Shown here: positions 7,301-60,198 of the stretch, in pieces
How positions within the stretch are numbered: position 1 is the first letter of the stretch
Layout of the letters: the number at the start of each line of letters is the position of its first letter
Assembly (NCBI GenBank): GCA_018433345.1
Contig: JAHDRK010000033.1
Coordinates: 9,166 to 73,165, forward strand
DNA: 64,000 nt
Origin: Syntrophobacterales bacterium
GTDB taxonomy: Bacteria > Desulfobacterota > Syntrophia > Syntrophales > UBA2210
Direction of reading: 5' to 3'
Notes under the pieces: model-generated
What the model was told of the DNA's origin: nothing
The model's input: only the letters and a program-made list of their open reading frames with translations
The model's database searches: none
Position numbers and translations under genes: made by a program

Positions 7301-8398
7301 ATGGAGGCCGATTCCGACATAGGGTTCATGAAACGGGCCCTTGCCCTCGCCCGCAGGGGGATGGGAAAAGTCAGTCCCAATCCGATGGTGGGGGCTGTCA
7401 TAGTCAAAGACGGTAGGATCATCGGCGAGGGATGGCACAGGGAATTCGGCGGGAAACACGCTGAAATCAACGCCATTGAAAGCGCCGTTGGGGATCCCCG
7501 GGGCGCCGTTTTCTATGTAACCCTCGAACCTTGCAGTCACCAGGGGAAGACACCTCCGTGTGTGGACCGCCTCATCGAGATCGCCCCCTCCCGGGTTGTC
7601 GTAGGAACGGCGGACCCAAATCCCCTCGTTTCGGGAAGGGGGATCGCCGCCCTCAGAAAGCACGGAATCCGGACTGACGTGGGTGTTCTCGAAGAAGAGT
7701 GCAGGCGCTTGAACGAGGTCTTTTTTACATTCATGGAACGAGGAACCCCCTTCGTAACGCTCAAGTACGCCCAGACACTCGACGGCAGAATCGCCTCTTC
7801 AAGGGGCGATTCTCGCTGGATAAGCTCTTACAAATCCCGGCGCTTCGCTCACCGGCTAAGAAGTCGTCACGACGCCGTCCTGGTAGGCATAGGAACGGTC
7901 ATCGCGGACGACCCGGAGCTGACGGTACGCCATGTTCGCGGTAGAAACCCCGTTCGAATCGTGGCGGACTCCCGGCTTCGCATTCCCAGAGAAGCGCGTC
8001 TACTGAAAGACGCTGAAAAGGCCCGAACCTTTATTTTTACTTCTACCCGAGCCGACAAGACAAAGATGGAGCGATTACGGAAAGAGGGTGTCAAGGTCAT
8101 CCTCGTTGATGAAGAGGAGCCGGGCCGCCTGGACATGATGGAGATTTTCGCGGTATTGGGGCAAATGGGCTTGTCTTCCGTTCTCGTGGAAGGCGGTTCG
8201 GGAATTATCACGTCTTGCCTGGCGAGGGGTTGCGTTGACCGCCTGGTGGTGATCATAGCCCCCCGGATACTGGGGGCGGGGATCGATGCCGTGGGTGACC
8301 TGGGAATTGCCGCCGTGGACCGATCGTTAAACCTCTTAGTGGACAAGCTCAGCGTAAGTGGCGGAGACATTATAATCGACGCCAGGCCGCGAAAGTAA
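7301..8398 (+). CDS. ribD: bifunctional riboflavin biosynthesis deaminase/reductase RibD
   Basis: 365 aa. Deaminase motifs (NPMVGAVIV, HAEINAI, TLEPCSHQGKTPPC) followed by a reductase domain (TLKYAQTLDGRIA, VLVEGG). Confidence 0.9.
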   Translation: MEADSDIGFMKRALALARRGMGKVSPNPMVGAVIVKDGRIIGEGWHREFGGKHAEINAIESAVGDPRGAVFYVTLEPCSHQGKTPPCVDRLIEIAPSRVVVGTADPNPLVSGRGIAALRKHGIRTDVGVLEEECRRLNEVFFTFMERGTPFVTLKYAQTLDGRIASSRGDSRWISSYKSRRFAHRLRSRHDAVLVGIGTVIADDPELTVRHVRGRNPVRIVADSRLRIPREARLLKDAEKARTFIFTSTRADKTKMERLRKEGVKVILVDEEEPGRLDMMEIFAVLGQMGLSSVLVEGGSGIITSCLARGCVDRLVVIIAPRILGAGIDAVGDLGIAAVDRSLNLLVDKLSVSGGDIIIDARPRK

Positions 8399-8408
8399 AG
8401 GACAGGCG

Positions 8409-8912
8409 ATGTCTTGGTACGCCGTCTATACTAAAAGCCGTTGCGAGGACAAGGTTCACCGGGGATTTCTGCAGCGGGACATAAAACCTTTCCTGCCGAA
8501 GATCGAGGTATGGAGCCGCCGCAAGGACAGGAAAAAGAAAATTCAAATCCCCCTCTTTTCAGGATACCTCTTCGTAGATCTTGACGATATAAACGGCGCC
8601 AAGAGGCTTGCGGTACTGAAAACACCGGGGGTGGTGAAAATCCTGGGAAACCCGACGGGAGGCGAACCCGTTCCCATCCCTGACGCCCAGATCGACGCCG
8701 TGAGGAGACTCGTCGATTCGAAGGTGGAACTTCGATCCTGCCTCTATCCCCGGGTGGGGGAAAGGGCTCGCATAACCAGCGGCCCTTTTAAGGGAATAGA
8801 AGGCGTCGTTTTACAGACCGATTACGACAAGGACCTCTTCGCCGTGTCGATCGACTTGCTCAGGCGTTCCGTGGCCGTCAAACTTGAAGGTTTCCGCGTG
8901 GAAAAGATTTAG
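8409..8912 (+). CDS. NusG paralog (RfaH/UpxY-like specialised transcription antiterminator)
   Basis: 167 aa. NGN-like N-terminus (WYAVYTKSRCEDKV...PLFSGYLFV) and a C-terminal KOW-like segment (ITSGPFKGIEGVV). Confidence 0.7.
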   Translation: MSWYAVYTKSRCEDKVHRGFLQRDIKPFLPKIEVWSRRKDRKKKIQIPLFSGYLFVDLDDINGAKRLAVLKTPGVVKILGNPTGGEPVPIPDAQIDAVRRLVDSKVELRSCLYPRVGERARITSGPFKGIEGVVLQTDYDKDLFAVSIDLLRRSVAVKLEGFRVEKI

Positions 8913-46908: not shown

Positions 46909-46999
46909 TAGACAAGAACACAATCGGGAGTATCGACAAATCGAACGTGTGATGTTTTAAATGGCGTCAAGGCTGAAAATAACAAGCAATCCGCGATAA

Positions 47000-47266
47000 G
47001 GAGGCGTCGCAACGGCAACCGGGCACGGAGAAGGAAACGAAATCCAGGTCATAGGAAAGGTATTCATCATTTACGGAACAGTGAAAGCCGCGGCGCCGGA
47101 CGGAACCACGCGTGTTCCAGGTCCGAACAGCATCGTTTTCGCGGGAGAGCGGATCATAACAGAAAGCGACGGCATGGTCATCCTCATGCTTGAAGGCCCT
47201 CCTCCGGTTCAGCTTGATATCGGCCGTATGAGCGACGTCATTCTCGATAGGTACTTGTCCCCGTGA
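47000..47266 (+). pseudogene. orphan fragment resembling the N-terminal FecR-like / retention-module domain of large secreted adhesins; no canonical start codon before the domain
   Basis: The open frame reads ..IQVIGKVFIIYGTVKAAAPDGTTRVPGPNSIVFAGERIITESDGMVILMLEGPPPVQLDIGRMSDVILD.. and stops at 47264-47266. The only canonical start (GTG 47081) would cut the domain. Confidence 0.3.
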
Positions 47267-47329
47267 TATTGATGTTCTATGATGGAATAGTACCGACCGA
47301 CGCGCAAGGAAAGGCAAAAAGGAGGACCT

Positions 47330-47878
47330 ATGAACGAGAAAAGGACCGCAGGGAATGGAACGATTATTTATAATATCCAGGGGGAAAAAGTCGATCTTCC
47401 GTCTCTCTGGTCTGATCGAACCATTCTCCTTGTTTTTCTCCGTCATTTCGGTTGACTCTTTACGGGGCAGCAGGTGGCCGCCCTCAAGGAAATAAAGGAC
47501 CTGTTGGATCGGGCCGGCATCCCCATCGTCGCTATAGGGAGCGGCTCCTTTGACCAGGCGCGAACCTTCGCCGACGGGACGGAATTCCCCGGTGAGTTGT
47601 ATGTCAGTCCGGATCTTGCGGCATATAGTGCCTTCGGCCTGGCGCGGGGGCGCCTGCGGACGCTGGGCCCACAATCCTTTCTACGGGCGCTCCGGGCGTT
47701 GAAAAGGGGATTCCGACAAGGATCGACCGCAGGCGATAATTGGCAGCAAGGCGGAGTGTTTCTGCTTGGACCTGGGAGAGAGGTGTTTTTAGAACACCGT
47801 AACAGGTTCGCGGGGGACTTTGTAGACAAGAAATATTTATCCGCCGCCCTGGAACCCTTTCTATATCAATTGAAATAA
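47330..47878 (+). CDS. peroxiredoxin-like (AhpC/TSA_2, PRXL2-type) thioredoxin-fold protein with in-frame TGA (probable selenocysteine) at codon 42
   Basis: ATG 47330 is preceded by GGAGG (47321-47325). Reading through gives ..ILLVFLRHFG-TGA-LFTGQQVAAL.., which continues in frame into the ORF-track ORF 47474-47878. The TGA (47453-47455) sits where Cys homologues have RHFGCxxC. Confidence 0.65.
47464..47484 (+). promoter_or_regulatory. candidate bacterial SECIS hairpin
   Basis: It starts 9 nt after the TGA. GGGGC/GCCCU pairs (47464-47468 with 47480-47484), an A-C mismatch, GC/GC pairs and an apical loop AGGUG. Confidence 0.45.
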
Positions 47879-47937: not shown

Positions 47938-48846
47938 ATGGAAAGATCTCTACAGCGGGACTCAATCCCCACCAACAGGATCGAGAGGTACATGGCTCGC
48001 ATGCCTAGTCTTCCAGTGACGGTGAACCGGGTTATGGAAATCTGCAACAGCCCTTCAACGTCACCATACGATTTGAACCGCGTTATCTCCCTGGATCCCG
48101 TTCTCACCGGGCAGGTCCTGAGGCTTGTAAACTCGGCCTACTACGGCCTCCGAAACGAGGTCACTTCTCTCCCCCGGGCCATAATCATGCTTGGAATGAA
48201 CACCATCAAAAACCTCGTTGTCAGCTCCGCGATTCTCAGCACCATGTCCGGACGGGACGATGTACATGCCCTCGACATGGACGCCTTTTGGCTTCATAGT
48301 CTATCTGCGGCCGTGGCGGCGAAACGGCTGGCGGCGTGCATCAAGATCCCCGCGGAAAACCAGGAAGAATACTTTGTCGGGGGACTGCTTCATGACCTGG
48401 GAAAAATACCTCTCAACAGTCTTTTCCCCTCTGAATACGCGGAAATCATGGCGGAAGCGCCTCAAAAGGGTACCGATCTCTGCGAAAAGGAACGGAAATT
48501 TCTGGGGATCGACCACACGCAGGTAGGCGGCATGATAGCCGAAAAATGGAAACTGGGAGTGGCGATCGAAGATTGCCTGCGCCTTCACCACGAAAGCCTG
48601 TCGGCGAGTGAAAGGAATGTCGATAGAGTTCGGATCGTCGCCCTGGCCGATCTTTGTGCGAGACGCTTCGGCCCCGACAATGCCGGAACCTGTTGTTTCG
48701 ACGAAGAGGCCGTGGACATGATGCGTCTCGCGCTTTCTATCGATCAAACCGACTTGGACGATCTTCGGGAAACGATGGCCGATGAAATCGAAAAGGCAAT
48801 GATATTCCTTCACATCGCCGGGGGGGATCATGGGGATAAGGATTAA
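47938..48846 (+). CDS. HDOD domain protein
   Basis: 302 aa. LPSLPVTVNRVMEI, DP.LTGQVLRLVNSAYYGL and GLLHDLGKIPL motifs. Confidence 0.8.
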   Translation: MERSLQRDSIPTNRIERYMARMPSLPVTVNRVMEICNSPSTSPYDLNRVISLDPVLTGQVLRLVNSAYYGLRNEVTSLPRAIIMLGMNTIKNLVVSSAILSTMSGRDDVHALDMDAFWLHSLSAAVAAKRLAACIKIPAENQEEYFVGGLLHDLGKIPLNSLFPSEYAEIMAEAPQKGTDLCEKERKFLGIDHTQVGGMIAEKWKLGVAIEDCLRLHHESLSASERNVDRVRIVALADLCARRFGPDNAGTCCFDEEAVDMMRLALSIDQTDLDDLRETMADEIEKAMIFLHIAGGDHGDKD

Positions 48847-58000: not shown

Positions 58001-58792
58001 ATGGACACCGAACCTCTTTCCCTGAACCACAAAAGGCGTCTCCGGAAACTGCGTCTCAAGAAATACCGCGAAAGAGAGGGACTATTCCTGGCGGAGGGCA
58101 GGAACGCCTGCCGCGAAGCCCTTCGCGGCGACCGTTACCCCCTGCGTGAAATAATCATCTCCCGGGACCTTCCCGACAACGACAGGGAGTGGCTGTCACG
58201 GGAACTTTCGTCACGGACGGTTCCAGTTTACTCCTGTTCCCGCGCCGACATAAACGAGCTGTCATCCGAAGAACATGCCCGAGGCATCCTCGTGGTCTGT
58301 AAATCCGTAGACTCTTCTCTTGACACGCCGAACAACGATCAACCCGACCGAATCGTTTACCTCGAAGGCATCTCCGATGCCGGGAACCTGGGAACAATAA
58401 TGAGGACGTCACTGTGGTTCGGCGTCAACCGGATCGCGCTGGGGCCATCCTGCATCGATCCTTACAATACCAAGGTGATCAGGGCTTCCGCGGGAACCAT
58501 CTTCGGTGTCTCACTTATACGGGATGTTGCGGCGGAAAAGCTCTTTTCCTTCGCCGAAACACAAGGCTATGACCTCGTAGCCACATCGCCCAGGGGCGGT
58601 ATTCCCCCGGCAGAACTGAAAAAAGAGGGGAGGATCGTCCTGCTTTTGGGAGAAGAGTCGAGGGGGCTCTCGTCTGAATTGATGGAACATGCCCACACAC
58701 TCGTCACCGTCCCTGGTTCGGGCGCCGCCGAATCGTTAAACCTGGCCGCGGCGGCCGCCATATTGCTCTACGAGACGAGAACCGTGCCCTGA
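58001..58792 (+). CDS. TrmH/SpoU-family RNA 2'-O-methyltransferase
   Basis: GGAGG RBS before ATG 58001. LFLAEG, LEGISDAGNLGTIMRT, LLLGEESRGL and ESLNLAAAAAILLYE motifs. Confidence 0.82.
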   Translation: MDTEPLSLNHKRRLRKLRLKKYREREGLFLAEGRNACREALRGDRYPLREIIISRDLPDNDREWLSRELSSRTVPVYSCSRADINELSSEEHARGILVVCKSVDSSLDTPNNDQPDRIVYLEGISDAGNLGTIMRTSLWFGVNRIALGPSCIDPYNTKVIRASAGTIFGVSLIRDVAAEKLFSFAETQGYDLVATSPRGGIPPAELKKEGRIVLLLGEESRGLSSELMEHAHTLVTVPGSGAAESLNLAAAAAILLYETRTVP

Positions 58793-59021
58793 GGTCTTGT
58801 TTGTCCCATGACATTGCCGCTTACATACAAAATAACCGCTCTTCCCGAGCCTGTGGAAGGATCGCGGGGTACGAGCGGGCAACGAGACGGAACACCTTAT
58901 CTCCACTTCCACAGGCCCGTTGCGGAAGGTGACAAAAAAGACCGCCGCCCGCCCATAGCCCCTCACCTCGCTGCCATATTTCTTCTTGACTGAAAAAACC
59001 CTTTTATATAGACGTAAAAAG

Positions 59022-59579
59022 ATGTCACCAAGACCCTGGGATATTATTTCGAGCAAGGAGGAAGGGTCCTTCGGGATCTTTTCAATACGGCGGAAGCGGG
59101 CCCGCTCGCCCCGAACGGCTCGCGAACACGATTTCATCATCTTGGAATGCCCTCCCTGGGTCAACGTGATTCCCGTCACCACCGAGGGCAAGGTGGTCAT
59201 GATACGTCAGTGGCGACACGGGATCGGCGGGGATACCCTGGAGATACCGGGAGGCGTGGTGGAACACGGCGATACGCCTCTTTTGGCCGCCCACCGAGAG
59301 CTTAGGGAAGAAACGGGGTACCTGGCGGAGGACATGGTTCCCGTGGGATTCGTCCATCCCAACCCCGCATTCATGGACAACCGATGCTACACCTACGTGG
59401 CGGAAGGGGCGACTCTCAACGGAAGCCAGGAGCTCGATGACAAGGAAGACATAGATGTCGTCCTAATGGAACCCTCGGAAATACCGGCCCTTATCCGCAA
59501 CGGCGTTATCACCCACTCCCTGGTCGTCGTAGCCTTCTATCGGTATTTCATGGAATATCTATCACATGAACCGGCTTAA
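59022..59579 (+). CDS. NUDIX hydrolase (ADP-ribose pyrophosphatase-like)
   Basis: Nudix box GGVVEHGDTPLLAAHRELREETGY. Start at ATG 59022. Confidence 0.8.
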   Translation: MSPRPWDIISSKEEGSFGIFSIRRKRARSPRTAREHDFIILECPPWVNVIPVTTEGKVVMIRQWRHGIGGDTLEIPGGVVEHGDTPLLAAHRELREETGYLAEDMVPVGFVHPNPAFMDNRCYTYVAEGATLNGSQELDDKEDIDVVLMEPSEIPALIRNGVITHSLVVVAFYRYFMEYLSHEPA

Positions 59580-60120
59580 AGAGTATCGGTTTTGTCCCCG
59601 CTGCGGCGGGAAGCTGGAGTCAAAGATCGTAAAAAGAGGCGAACCCGCCCGTCTTGTTTGTCTGTCCTGCGATTTCGTGTTTTATATAGACCCCAAAATA
59701 GCGGCCTGCACTATCGTTGAAAGAAGCGGGAAGATCCTCCTGTTGAAACGAGCGATCGAACCTGCCGGGGGCGCGTGGGTTATCCCCGGCGGGTTTGTCG
59801 ACGTGGGGGAAACAGTCCTCCAAGCCGCCGTCCGTGAAACGAAAGAGGAGGCCTTGCTTGACGTGGAGCCGGGTCCTCTGGTCGGTGTCTATTCTTACCC
59901 CGGGGTATCGGTGATTGTCATCGTCTACGAGGCGCAAATCATCAGGGGTATCCCGGGTGCCGGCGACGAATCCCTAGAGGCAGGCCTTTTCCTCCCTTCC
60001 GAGATTCCCTGGCCCTCCCTGGCCTTTACCAGTACCATGGACGCCCTCAAGGATTACCTGGATCGCCGTCATCCTGAAGCAACCCTTTCTTGGAACCGCC
60101 GTTCACCGAGGGACATTTGA
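59566..60120 (+). CDS. NUDIX hydrolase with N-terminal zinc-ribbon
   Basis: CPRCGG...CLSCDF zinc-ribbon followed by the Nudix box GGFVDVGETVLQAAVRETKEEALL. It overlaps the previous gene by 14 nt. Confidence 0.8.
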   Translation: MNRLKEYRFCPRCGGKLESKIVKRGEPARLVCLSCDFVFYIDPKIAACTIVERSGKILLLKRAIEPAGGAWVIPGGFVDVGETVLQAAVRETKEEALLDVEPGPLVGVYSYPGVSVIVIVYEAQIIRGIPGAGDESLEAGLFLPSEIPWPSLAFTSTMDALKDYLDRRHPEATLSWNRRSPRDI

Positions 60121-60198
60121 CGCCAACAACCCGATCGTATAATCTGAAGATGCTTCTATGAATACATTAGCCGAATGCCTGTTGAAAAGGAGGGGACA

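What the first reader, a model, noticed from the sequence alone, without database searches (positions are those of the whole stretch)
47330..47878. Probable unannotated selenoprotein: a peroxiredoxin-like gene with TGA at the catalytic-Cys position plus a SECIS-like hairpin
The ORF track reports only 47474-47878, which begins at an internal GTG. In the same frame, ATG 47330 (GGAGG RBS at 47321-47325) opens 41 codons of a thioredoxin-fold N-terminus ending ..ILLVFLRHFG. Next comes TGA (47453-47455), and the frame then continues as LFTGQQVAALKE.. straight into the reported ORF. In Cys-containing AhpC/TSA_2 (PRXL2-like) proteins this position is the redox Cys of an RHFG-C-x-x-C motif. Here the motif would be U-L-F-T. 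Nine nt after the TGA, a hairpin at 47464-47484 (5 bp, a mismatch, 2 bp, apical loop AGGUG) fits the general layout of bacterial SECIS elements. Peroxiredoxin-like selenoproteins are known in Sec-rich deltaproteobacteria, but gene callers routinely truncate such genes.
Basis: partly seen in the sequence, partly recalled or inferred. Interest (0 to 1): 0.75.

Follow-up and report, generated by a model that had tools for sequence, protein, structure and literature searches.

The report
Mis-called peroxiredoxin-like selenoprotein gene
This is a genuine selenocysteine-encoding gene for a small thioredoxin-fold redox protein that gene callers cut in half at the UGA codon, but it belongs to a kind of bacterial selenoprotein that is already catalogued, so it is an annotation fix, not a discovery.

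Summary
ATG 47330 with an upstream GGAGG opens 41 codons. An in-frame TGA follows at 47453-47455, and the frame runs on to TAA at 47876-47878, giving 182 codons. The read-through product is a PRXL2/AhpC-TSA_2 thioredoxin-fold protein. The TGA aligns with the first Cys of the family's RHFG-C-x-x-C redox box.

The comparative evidence is strong. The TGA sits at this codon in about 20 distinct homologous loci from several phyla, and in 6 independent assemblies of this same locus. The upstream segment evolves like coding sequence. Sec-form genes carry a much stronger hairpin after the codon than Cys-form genes do (p about 1e-5). The window-type hairpin shows synonymous-site conservation (p about 0.0004) and compensatory base changes.

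The hairpin meets the published bacterial SECIS criteria. The exception is that the window's copy alone has an A.C mismatch two pairs below the loop.

The gene is not new in kind. Prx-like proteins with the first redox-box Cys replaced by Sec are established in the literature. NCBI has a 'SelL-related redox protein' model, and a 2026 review lists an AhpC/TSA UxxS selenoprotein family.

The mildly interesting feature is that this clade (U-x-x-T/A/S) has no cysteine at all.

I could not test for Sec machinery (selABCD) in the source genome.

The parts
47255..47283 (+). Promoter-like site (TTGTCC-17-TATGAT), about 47 nt upstream of the ATG
   Evidence: Consensus scan only, 9 of 12 matches. This is weak evidence. 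No terminator-like site lies between this gene and the next one.
47318..47325 (+). Ribosome-binding site AAAGGAGG, 4 nt before the ATG
   Evidence: Read directly. The closest relatives L001 and L002 have aaaaggaggagg before their ATG.
47330..47878 (+). Full selenoprotein coding sequence: 182 codons (Sec at codon 42) plus TAA. It encodes a PRXL2/AhpC-TSA_2 (SelL-related) thioredoxin-fold protein.
   Evidence: Translation. Pfam PF13911, 77.8 bits against a cutoff of 27. NCBIfam NF040769, 111.6 bits against a cutoff of 120. PDB 9us9 (PRXL2B), E = 3.7e-17 over residues 12-171. ATG 47330 is the only start codon in the 54 open codons upstream of the TGA.
47453..47455 (+). In-frame TGA read as selenocysteine (codon 42). 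It is the first position of the redox box U-L-F-T (47453-47464).
   Evidence: It aligns with the first Cys of CxxC in homologues. TGA sits at the same codon in about 20 distinct homologous loci. It is identical in 6 independent assemblies of this locus.
47464..47484 (+). SECIS-like hairpin inside the coding sequence. Arms are 47464-47471 and 47477-47484, with apical loop AGGUG at 47472-47476 and an A47469.C47479 mismatch.
   Evidence: Fold. The hairpin alone is -10.2 kcal/mol and the loop starts 16 nt after the UGA. Synonymous sites in the arms are conserved, 0.125 against 0.555, p = 0.0004. Four of 7 pairs show changes on both sides, and 0 of 500 shuffles reach that. bSECIS criteria are taken from PMC13188914.
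47474..47878 (+). The truncated 134-aa ORF (GTG start) that ORF lists and JGI gene calls report (P0001). This is an artefact of stopping at the UGA.
   Evidence: It would lack the N-terminal strands and the active site. The GTG is not a conserved start. Relatives are called from other codons, often the codon directly after the TGA.
46967..47674 (-). Spurious 235-aa antisense ORF that some pipelines call in place of the real gene
   Evidence: It is called in Logan assemblies L091-L093 and has no Pfam hit on record there. The antisense open stretch varies from 97 to 237 aa in homologues. Substitutions follow the + strand codon phase.
47938..48846 (+). Downstream HDOD + HD domain gene, 59 nt after the stop. 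It is possibly co-transcribed and is syntenic in the closest relatives only.
   Evidence: Pfam HDOD 3.3e-58. The same neighbour occurs in L002 (64% identity) and L001 (74%, partial). It is absent next to the more distant clade members L095 and L099.

Best explanation
Window 47330-47878 (+) is one gene for a 182-residue cytoplasmic thioredoxin-fold oxidoreductase of the PRXL2 / AhpC-TSA_2 ('SelL-related', 'Prx-like') family. Codon 42 is UGA and is decoded as selenocysteine.

Inferred mechanism, from the established bacterial Sec pathway: as the ribosome reaches the UGA, the hairpin starting 9 nt downstream (loop AGGUG, 16 nt after the UGA) is bound by SelB-GTP-Sec-tRNA(Sec). That complex delivers Sec in place of termination.

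Sec occupies the nucleophilic first position of the family's C-x-x-C redox box. In this clade the second position is Thr, Ala or Ser, and the protein has no cysteine at all. The inference is that the enzyme works as a single-selenol catalyst. The Sec would be oxidised, or form a selenenylsulfide with a substrate, and would then be recycled by an external thiol partner. An internal Se-S bond is not possible.

Shown here: the reading frame, the family, the Sec/Cys alignment, conservation of the UGA, and conservation and covariation of the hairpin.

Inferred, not shown: actual Sec insertion in this organism, the SelB interaction, and the chemistry and substrate.
For: 1. Family and active-site alignment.
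- Pfam PF13911, E = 1e-21.
- NCBIfam 'SelL-related redox protein', 111.6 bits.
- PDB PRXL2B, E = 3.7e-17, with its CxxC first Cys opposite codon 42.
- CxxC in 41 genome loci and 102 representative proteins.

2. The UGA is conserved.
- All 6 closest database relatives are truncated. Their DNA has TGA at the same codon, preceded by a conserved in-frame 41-43-codon N-terminus with its own ATG and RBS.
- Eleven further genome loci from Desulfatibacillum alkenivorans and from Deltaproteobacteria, Myxococcales, Chloroflexota, Chthonomonas and other MAGs have it too.
- So do 5 more metagenome loci.

3. It is not an error. TGA is identical in 6 independent assemblies.

4. The code is standard. TGA ends 17 of 35 window genes.

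5. The upstream segment is coding. Pairwise differences at codon positions 1/2/3 are 216/146/370.

6. The hairpin is functional RNA.
- Sec forms have a best hairpin of -12.4 kcal/mol against -7.2 for Cys forms (Mann-Whitney p = 1e-5; composition-corrected p = 1.4e-4).
- The loop sits at a fixed +17 or +26.
- Arm codons are synonymously conserved (p = 0.0004).
- Four of 7 pairs have compensatory changes, and 0 of 500 shuffles reach that.

7. It fits the published bSECIS constraints on loop size, G in loop position 2, 16-nt spacing and MFE.

8. There is no Cys in the window protein or in L001, L002, L003, L006 and L008.
Against: - The window contains no selA, selB, selD or tRNA-Sec. The rest of the genome could not be examined, so Sec decoding capacity in this organism is assumed, not shown.
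- The window's hairpin is the only one of 14 with a mismatch at pair 17-27 (A.C). That leaves just 2 bp directly under the loop. Taken strictly, this fails the '4-16 bp upper stem' criterion.
- Taken alone, the hairpin is no more stable than shuffled sequence.
- Rfam has no match.
- The window protein scores just under the NCBIfam cutoff (111.6 against 120).
- There is no experimental evidence of any kind.
Confidence: 0.88

Rival explanations
1. Relic selenoprotein gene. The lineage inherited a Sec-form gene, but this organism no longer decodes UGA as Sec or decodes it poorly. Translation would then stop after 41 residues and the locus would be on its way to decay.
For: The window's hairpin alone carries an A.C mismatch next to the apical stem. 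No Sec machinery is visible in the 64 kb. The window protein is the lowest-scoring of its subclade (window, L001, L002) on NF040769.
Against: The frame is intact for all 182 codons with no other stop or frameshift. The RBS and ATG are intact. Overall hairpin stability is unchanged (-10.2 against -10.1 in L001), because extra base pairs form at the foot. The locus is identical across 6 assemblies from different samples. A 64-kb window is not expected to hold the sel genes anyway.
Confidence: 0.07
2. Ordinary nonsense mutation or pseudogene, or two separate genes: a 41-aa peptide and a 134-aa protein starting at GTG 47474.
For: Gene callers report exactly this.
Against: The TGA sits at the identical codon in about 20 distinct loci at 30-66% protein identity. 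A chance nonsense mutation cannot explain that. The 134-aa product would lack the active site and half of the fold. The internal start is not conserved: GTG here, ATG, ATT or other codons elsewhere.
Confidence: 0.02
3. UGA is read through by something other than Sec, such as near-cognate Trp or Cys insertion or a reassigned code.
For: Low-level UGA read-through exists in bacteria (general knowledge).
Against: TGA is the commonest normal stop in this window, ending 17 of 35 genes. The position is the catalytic Cys/Sec site. A conserved, covarying hairpin with a GGU loop at SECIS distance accompanies the UGA only in the TGA forms.
Confidence: 0.02
4. Sequencing or assembly error: the true codon is TGC or TGT.
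For: None found.
Against: Six independent assemblies (two JGI metagenomes, four SRA runs) all have TGA. At most one difference occurs elsewhere in the 549 bases.
Confidence: 0.005

Closest known systems
Prokaryotic 'Prx-like' / 'peroxiredoxin-like (AhpC/TSA) family' selenoproteins (Zhang & Gladyshev 2007 and 2008; Table 1 of the 2026 review PMC13188914, entry cd02970, UxxS)
   Same: Both are thioredoxin-fold proteins with the first residue of the redox box replaced by Sec and a SECIS in the coding region just after the UGA. Both are common in sulfate-reducer-type Deltaproteobacteria and routinely mis-annotated. A UxxS member of the window's own clade exists (L097/P0229).
   Different: I could not retrieve the review's reference protein (MDX2448127.1) to show that it is the same clade. 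The window has UxxT, not UxxS.
NCBIfam NF040769 'SelL-related redox protein'
   Same: It is the only NCBIfam hit and covers almost the full length (model positions 10-169 of 173). The closest relative L001 and the Sec forms L010, L011, L014 and L015 pass its cutoff. NCBI uses this name for a full-length CxxC member (P0163).
   Different: The window protein scores 111.6, below the curated cutoff of 120, so PGAP would not assign this name. Most family members are CxxC.
Mammalian PRXL2B (prostamide/prostaglandin F synthase, PDB 9us9) and the PRXL2 family
   Same: It is the best solved-structure match (E = 3.7e-17 over about 160 residues). The R-x-F-G-C-x-x-C box aligns with RHFG-U-L-F-T.
   Different: PRXL2B uses two cysteines. 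The window protein has Sec plus Thr and no Cys. Sharing the fold does not imply the same substrate.
Eukaryotic selenoprotein L (SelL), U-x-x-U
   Same: It is a Prx-like thioredoxin-fold protein with Sec in the redox box. The NCBIfam name refers to it.
   Different: SelL has two Sec residues that form a diselenide, and in eukaryotes its SECIS lies in the 3' UTR. Here there is one Sec and no second redox residue.
Glutathione peroxidase (U-x-x-T motif) and 1-Cys peroxiredoxins
   Same: The resemblance is in mechanism only. Each has a single catalytic chalcogen recycled by an external thiol. GPx-like selenoproteins are listed with the motif UxxT.
   Different: They are different families. The Pfam peroxiredoxin model PF00578 scores 17.1 against a cutoff of 26. 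The +3 residue is not conserved in the clade (T, A or S), so it is unlikely to be catalytic.

Membership tests
Bacterial selenoprotein gene (Sec-UGA plus bSECIS) | The in-frame UGA aligns with a conserved Cys in homologues (Sec/Cys pair) | tested here: met
   P0007, PRXL2B, 41 CxxC loci and 102 CxxC representatives
Bacterial selenoprotein gene (Sec-UGA plus bSECIS) | TGA-containing homologues exist in other organisms, with coding conservation on both sides of the UGA | tested here: met
   About 20 distinct loci. Codon-position differences upstream are 216/146/370.
Bacterial selenoprotein gene (Sec-UGA plus bSECIS) | bSECIS apical loop of 3-9 nt with a G in the first two loop positions (PMC13188914, Fig. 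2) | tested here: met
   The loop is AGGUG, 5 nt, with G at position 2 followed by G
Bacterial selenoprotein gene (Sec-UGA plus bSECIS) | bSECIS upper stem of 4-16 bp | tested here: inconclusive
   The window has 2 bp, an A.C mismatch, then 5 bp. All 13 relatives with this hairpin type pair at that position.
Bacterial selenoprotein gene (Sec-UGA plus bSECIS) | 16-37 nt between the UGA and the apical loop, and MFE at or below -7.5 kcal/mol | tested here: met
   The spacing is 16 nt (47456-47471), at the lower limit. The hairpin is -10.2 kcal/mol.
Bacterial selenoprotein gene (Sec-UGA plus bSECIS) | The genome encodes selA, selB, selC (tRNA-Sec) and selD | not testable with these tools
   None of these is in the 64-kb window. 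The source genome was not among the genome-collection hits.
Bacterial selenoprotein gene (Sec-UGA plus bSECIS) | Selenium is actually incorporated into a full-length product | not testable with these tools
   Needs 75Se labelling or mass spectrometry
Pfam PF13911 AhpC-TSA_2 (PRXL2-like) | Score above the Pfam gathering threshold | tested here: met
   77.8 bits against 27, residues 52-159
NCBIfam NF040769 SelL-related redox protein | Score above the curated cutoff (120 bits) | tested here: not met
   The window scores 111.6. Relatives L001 (122.8), L010 (130.4), L011 (140.9), L014 (151) and L015 (121.1) pass. L003, L009, L012, L017 and L021 do not.
Typical peroxiredoxin (PF00578, PxxxT/SxxC) | Score above the gathering threshold, with a peroxidatic Cys/Sec at the T-x-x-C position | tested here: not met
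   17.1 bits against 26. Sec sits at the first position of the box and Thr at the fourth, the reverse of the TxxU motif of Sec-peroxiredoxins.
Selenoprotein L (SelL) | U-x-x-U motif (two Sec residues) | tested here: not met
   The motif is U-L-F-T with a single TGA

The most novel reading that the evidence does not exclude
The U-x-x-T/A/S clade to which this gene belongs may be a mechanistically distinct branch of the SelL-related/PRXL2 family. Its proteins have a single selenol and no cysteine at all. They arose from U-x-x-C ancestors by loss of the resolving Cys. Their SECIS hairpin sits 9 nt closer to the UGA than in the other Sec forms (loop at +17 against +26). If so, the clade would act as a GPx-like peroxidase or a selenenylsulfide relay that depends on an external thiol partner. 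In the closest relatives it may be tied functionally to the adjacent HDOD signalling protein.
Probability: 0.3. Interest if true: 0.45.

Novelty: new member of a known kind. Interest (0 to 1): 0.3.

Why it matters
The practical value is in annotation. This gene and at least 15 relatives in public databases are stored as 123-140-aa fragments named 'AhpC/TSA family protein' or 'hypothetical protein', or are replaced by a spurious antisense ORF. Selenoproteomes of anaerobic, sulfate-reducer-type bacteria are therefore undercounted.

Biologically, the gene adds one more case of Cys-to-Sec replacement at a thioredoxin-fold active site. It also gives a neat small data set for two questions: how a SECIS is accommodated inside a coding sequence, and how it moves. 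The data set contains Sec and Cys forms, two SECIS registers, and possible Sec-to-Cys reversions that retain the hairpin.

The Cys-free single-Sec variant would be a convenient minimal model for selenol-only catalysis if someone expressed it.

Tried and rejected
- Rfam at gathering threshold on the whole window, and at E <= 10 on 47300-47600: no SECIS family. The only hit was a chance sRNA-Xcc1 match at E = 6. This is uninformative for short bacterial SECIS hairpins.
- tRNA scan of the window and of 11 Sec-form loci: no tRNA-Sec.
- Pfam annotation of 35 window genes: no selA, selB or selD.
- Mechanical scan for other TGA-split genes in the window: 38 candidates, nearly all antisense to or overlapping known genes. 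The two that lie in gene-free gaps (58736-59386 and 8370-8810, both minus strand) translate to junk.
- Viral contig scan: nothing.
I worked around this with an alignment of allowed pieces.
- Structure prediction of the read-through protein was not attempted, because the same restriction applies. The fold was inferred from the PDB sequence match instead.
- The genome-collection scan did not return the window's own genome, so the organism is unidentified. The best relative is Desulfatibacillum alkenivorans at 52%.
- The Haft 2023 and 2025 papers and the original SelL paper are not held in the library.
- A single covariation model across all Sec forms was abandoned, because the hairpin register differs between subgroups.
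- The split Pyr_redox gene next to the homologue in L003/L004 looked like a second selenoprotein. It is a decayed fragment with a TAG and a frameshift.

Full report
OBSERVATION

- AAAGGAGG ends at 47325 and ATG is at 47330.
- There are 41 sense codons (MNEKRTAGNGTIIYNIQGEKVDLPSLWSDRTILLVFLRHFG), then TGA at 47453-47455.
- The same frame continues LFTGQQVAALKEI... to TAA at 47876-47878, giving 182 codons.
- The mechanical ORF list shows only 47330-47455 (41 aa) and 47474-47878 (134 aa, GTG start).
- RNAfold places a hairpin at 47464-47484: 5 bp, an A47469.C47479 mismatch, 2 bp, and loop AGGUG at 47472-47476.

On its own, none of this is beyond chance.
- The hairpin is no more stable than shuffled sequence: z = 0.17, 1.5 and -1.1.
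- The window contains 38 other TGA-split open frames.

WHAT THE PROTEIN IS

With Cys in place of the TGA, the product has these matches:
- Pfam AhpC-TSA_2 (PF13911), E = 1e-21, 77.8 bits against a cutoff of 27.
- A single NCBIfam model, NF040769 'SelL-related redox protein', at 111.6 bits against a cutoff of 120.
- As best solved structure, prostamide/prostaglandin F synthase PRXL2B (9us9, E = 3.7e-17 over residues 12-171). Its RRFG-C-VV-C box lies opposite RHFG-U-LF-T. A second deposited entry has both Cys changed to Ser.

Typical peroxiredoxin (PF00578) scores below threshold.

COMPARATIVE EVIDENCE FOR THE UGA

A word-indexed search found only 7 relatives. The six closest were all 123-134 aa, meaning truncated.

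Fetching their contigs showed the same arrangement in every case:
- an in-frame TGA at the same codon;
- the context RHFG-U-[LI]F[TA][GR]QQ[VA]AAL;
- a conserved 41-43-codon N-terminus with its own ATG and Shine-Dalgarno sequence.

The single genome-collection scan returned 459 relatives. Among the 80 loci kept, the motif at this position was as follows.
- CxxC in 41.
- UxxC in 10: Deltaproteobacteria, Myxococcales, Chloroflexota, Chthonomonas, and MAGs labelled 'Spirochaetaceae' and 'Rickettsiales'.
- UxxA or UxxT in the window's clade, including the cultured Desulfatibacillum alkenivorans DSM 16219 at 52% identity.

A second profile search turned up ten more 133-140-aa truncations that begin MFARQQVAAL, MFAKQQ or MFSRQQ. 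One is named 'AhpC/TSA family protein [Desulfobacterales bacterium]' by NCBI. In the five whose DNA I fetched, TGA is the codon immediately before the called start.

ERROR, CODE AND CODING CHECKS
- The TGA is identical in six independent assemblies of this same locus: two JGI metagenomes and four SRA runs.
- TGA is the commonest ordinary stop in the window, ending 17 of 35 genes, so the code is standard.
- In the 30 codons upstream of the TGA, pairwise differences fall 216/146/370 on codon positions 1/2/3. That is the signature of a translated region.
- The 235-aa antisense ORF that Logan gene calls report instead is not conserved. Its open stretch varies from 97 to 237 aa in homologues.

THE HAIRPIN

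In the 13 relatives that share the window's hairpin type, the stem is a 5-8-bp helix. In most of them it is GGCAGC-AGGNN-GCUGCC.

Three independent tests support a constraint on the RNA.
1. Among invariant-residue codons across 8 clade members, the four arm codons (CAG CAG and GCU GCC) have a mean pairwise codon difference of 0.125. Thirty-nine other such codons average 0.555 (permutation p = 0.0004).
2. Across the family, the 17 distinct Sec-form genes have a best hairpin after the codon of -12.4 kcal/mol. The 41 Cys-form genes average -7.2 (Mann-Whitney p = 1e-5; p = 1.4e-4 on composition-corrected z-scores). The loop starts at a fixed +17 or +26 nt and contains G(G)U.
3. On 14 sequences with the window-type hairpin, 4 of 7 pairs show changes on both sides. 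Examples are G-C to U-A in L097, G-C to A-U in L099 and C-G to G-C in L015. Of all cells, 86.7% are paired, and 0 of 500 shuffles reach the observed values. Slid registers show fewer or no double changes.

Measured against the published bSECIS model (PMC13188914, Fig. 2), the window meets these criteria:
- loop size: 5 nt, within 3-9;
- a G in the first two loop positions: position 2;
- spacing: 16 nt, the lower limit of 16-37;
- MFE: -10.2, below -7.5.

The upper-stem criterion (4-16 bp) is met only if the A.C mismatch is tolerated. The window is the only one of the 14 sequences with that mismatch.

Rfam has no match. That says little for such short elements.

CONTEXT

The window is housekeeping DNA of an anaerobe. 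It encodes MetH, transketolase, PGI, pyruvate:ferredoxin oxidoreductase, thiolase, an RND efflux system and PAS histidine kinases. It has no selA, selB, selD or tRNA-Sec.

The downstream HDOD/HD gene (47938-48846) is syntenic in the two closest relatives only. A promoter-like site lies at 47255-47283, and there is no terminator before the HDOD gene.

The source organism could not be identified.

EVOLUTION

This rests on an NJ tree without bootstrap support.
- Most Sec forms make one clade.
- The window (UxxT, with L001 and L002) is sister to a UxxA group. That pair is next to L009 (UxxA) and L010 (UxxC). The pattern suggests CxxC to UxxC to Uxx[A/T/S].
- L014 looks like an independent Cys-to-Sec change.
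- L013 and L016 are CxxC forms nested among Sec forms that keep strong hairpins.

The window protein and L001, L002, L003, L006 and L008 contain no cysteine at all. Single-Cys analogues (CxxA, CxxS) exist among the Cys forms.

COMPARISON WITH WHAT IS KNOWN

- Several Prx-like selenoprotein families were described from marine metagenomes (PMC2398784).
- A UxxS member of the window's clade exists (L097). The clade is therefore very probably the catalogued one, but I could not fetch the reference accession to prove it.

On the formal membership test for NF040769, the window falls just short (111.6 against 120), while its closest relative passes.

VERDICT

This is a real, mis-called selenoprotein gene (confidence about 0.88). 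The main untested point is whether this organism has the Sec machinery.

It is a new member of a known kind, and its value is mostly in annotation. Modest points of interest are the Cys-free single-Sec redox box, the two SECIS registers within one family, and the unique A.C mismatch in this copy.

Noticed in passing
window 46967-47674 (-): A 235-aa TTG-start ORF antisense to the selenoprotein gene is what gene calls in several Logan assemblies report instead of the real gene. It has no Pfam hit on record, and its length is not conserved in homologues (97-237 aa).
   Followed up: yes
L013:3037-3100 and L016:10058-10120: These two CxxC forms nest among Sec forms in the NJ tree. They still have strong hairpins right after the Cys codon (-15.2 and -13.9 kcal/mol). 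They may be fossil SECIS elements left after Sec-to-Cys reversion.
   Followed up: partly
L011:9953-11494 (MAG HK-STAS-MYXO-51): The Sec-form ORF here reads on to 513 aa, with a C-terminal domain that looks like a short-chain dehydrogenase (TGASAGLG motif). A CxxC paralogue lies about 1.6 kb downstream in the same locus.
   Followed up: no
Sec-form loci L011, L012, L014, L017, L018, L021, L026, L030, compared with the window clade: One protein family uses two different SECIS registers. The apical loop starts 17 nt after the UGA in the window clade and 26 nt after it in most UxxC forms. The stem sequences are unrelated, but both have GU-containing loops.
   Followed up: partly
L003:1438-2085 and L004:1366-2043: Next to the homologue lie fragments of a pyridine nucleotide-disulfide oxidoreductase (Pyr_redox_2 and Pyr_redox_dim) beside an integrase. 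The interruption is a TAG plus a frameshift, so this is a decayed gene and not a second selenoprotein.
   Followed up: yes
window 47081-47266 (+): A 61-aa GTG-start ORF lies between transketolase and the selenoprotein gene. It is called as a gene in JGI contigs L089 and L090, has no Pfam hit, and overlaps the promoter-like site at 47255-47283. It is probably spurious.
   Followed up: no
Representative proteins P0015, P0021, P0023-P0029 and others: Many family members are 290-345 aa, with the PRXL2-like domain at the C-terminus and a hydrophobic N-terminal extension of about 150 residues. This is a membrane-anchored architecture that the window protein lacks.
   Followed up: no
window 58060-60175: This 2.1-kb stretch upstream of the pyruvate:ferredoxin oxidoreductase genes has no ORF of 200 aa or more. 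It holds only ORFs of 197 and 184 aa (58986-59579 and 59566-60120, + strand), which may be small POR subunits. The TGA-split frame on its minus strand translates to junk.
   Followed up: partly
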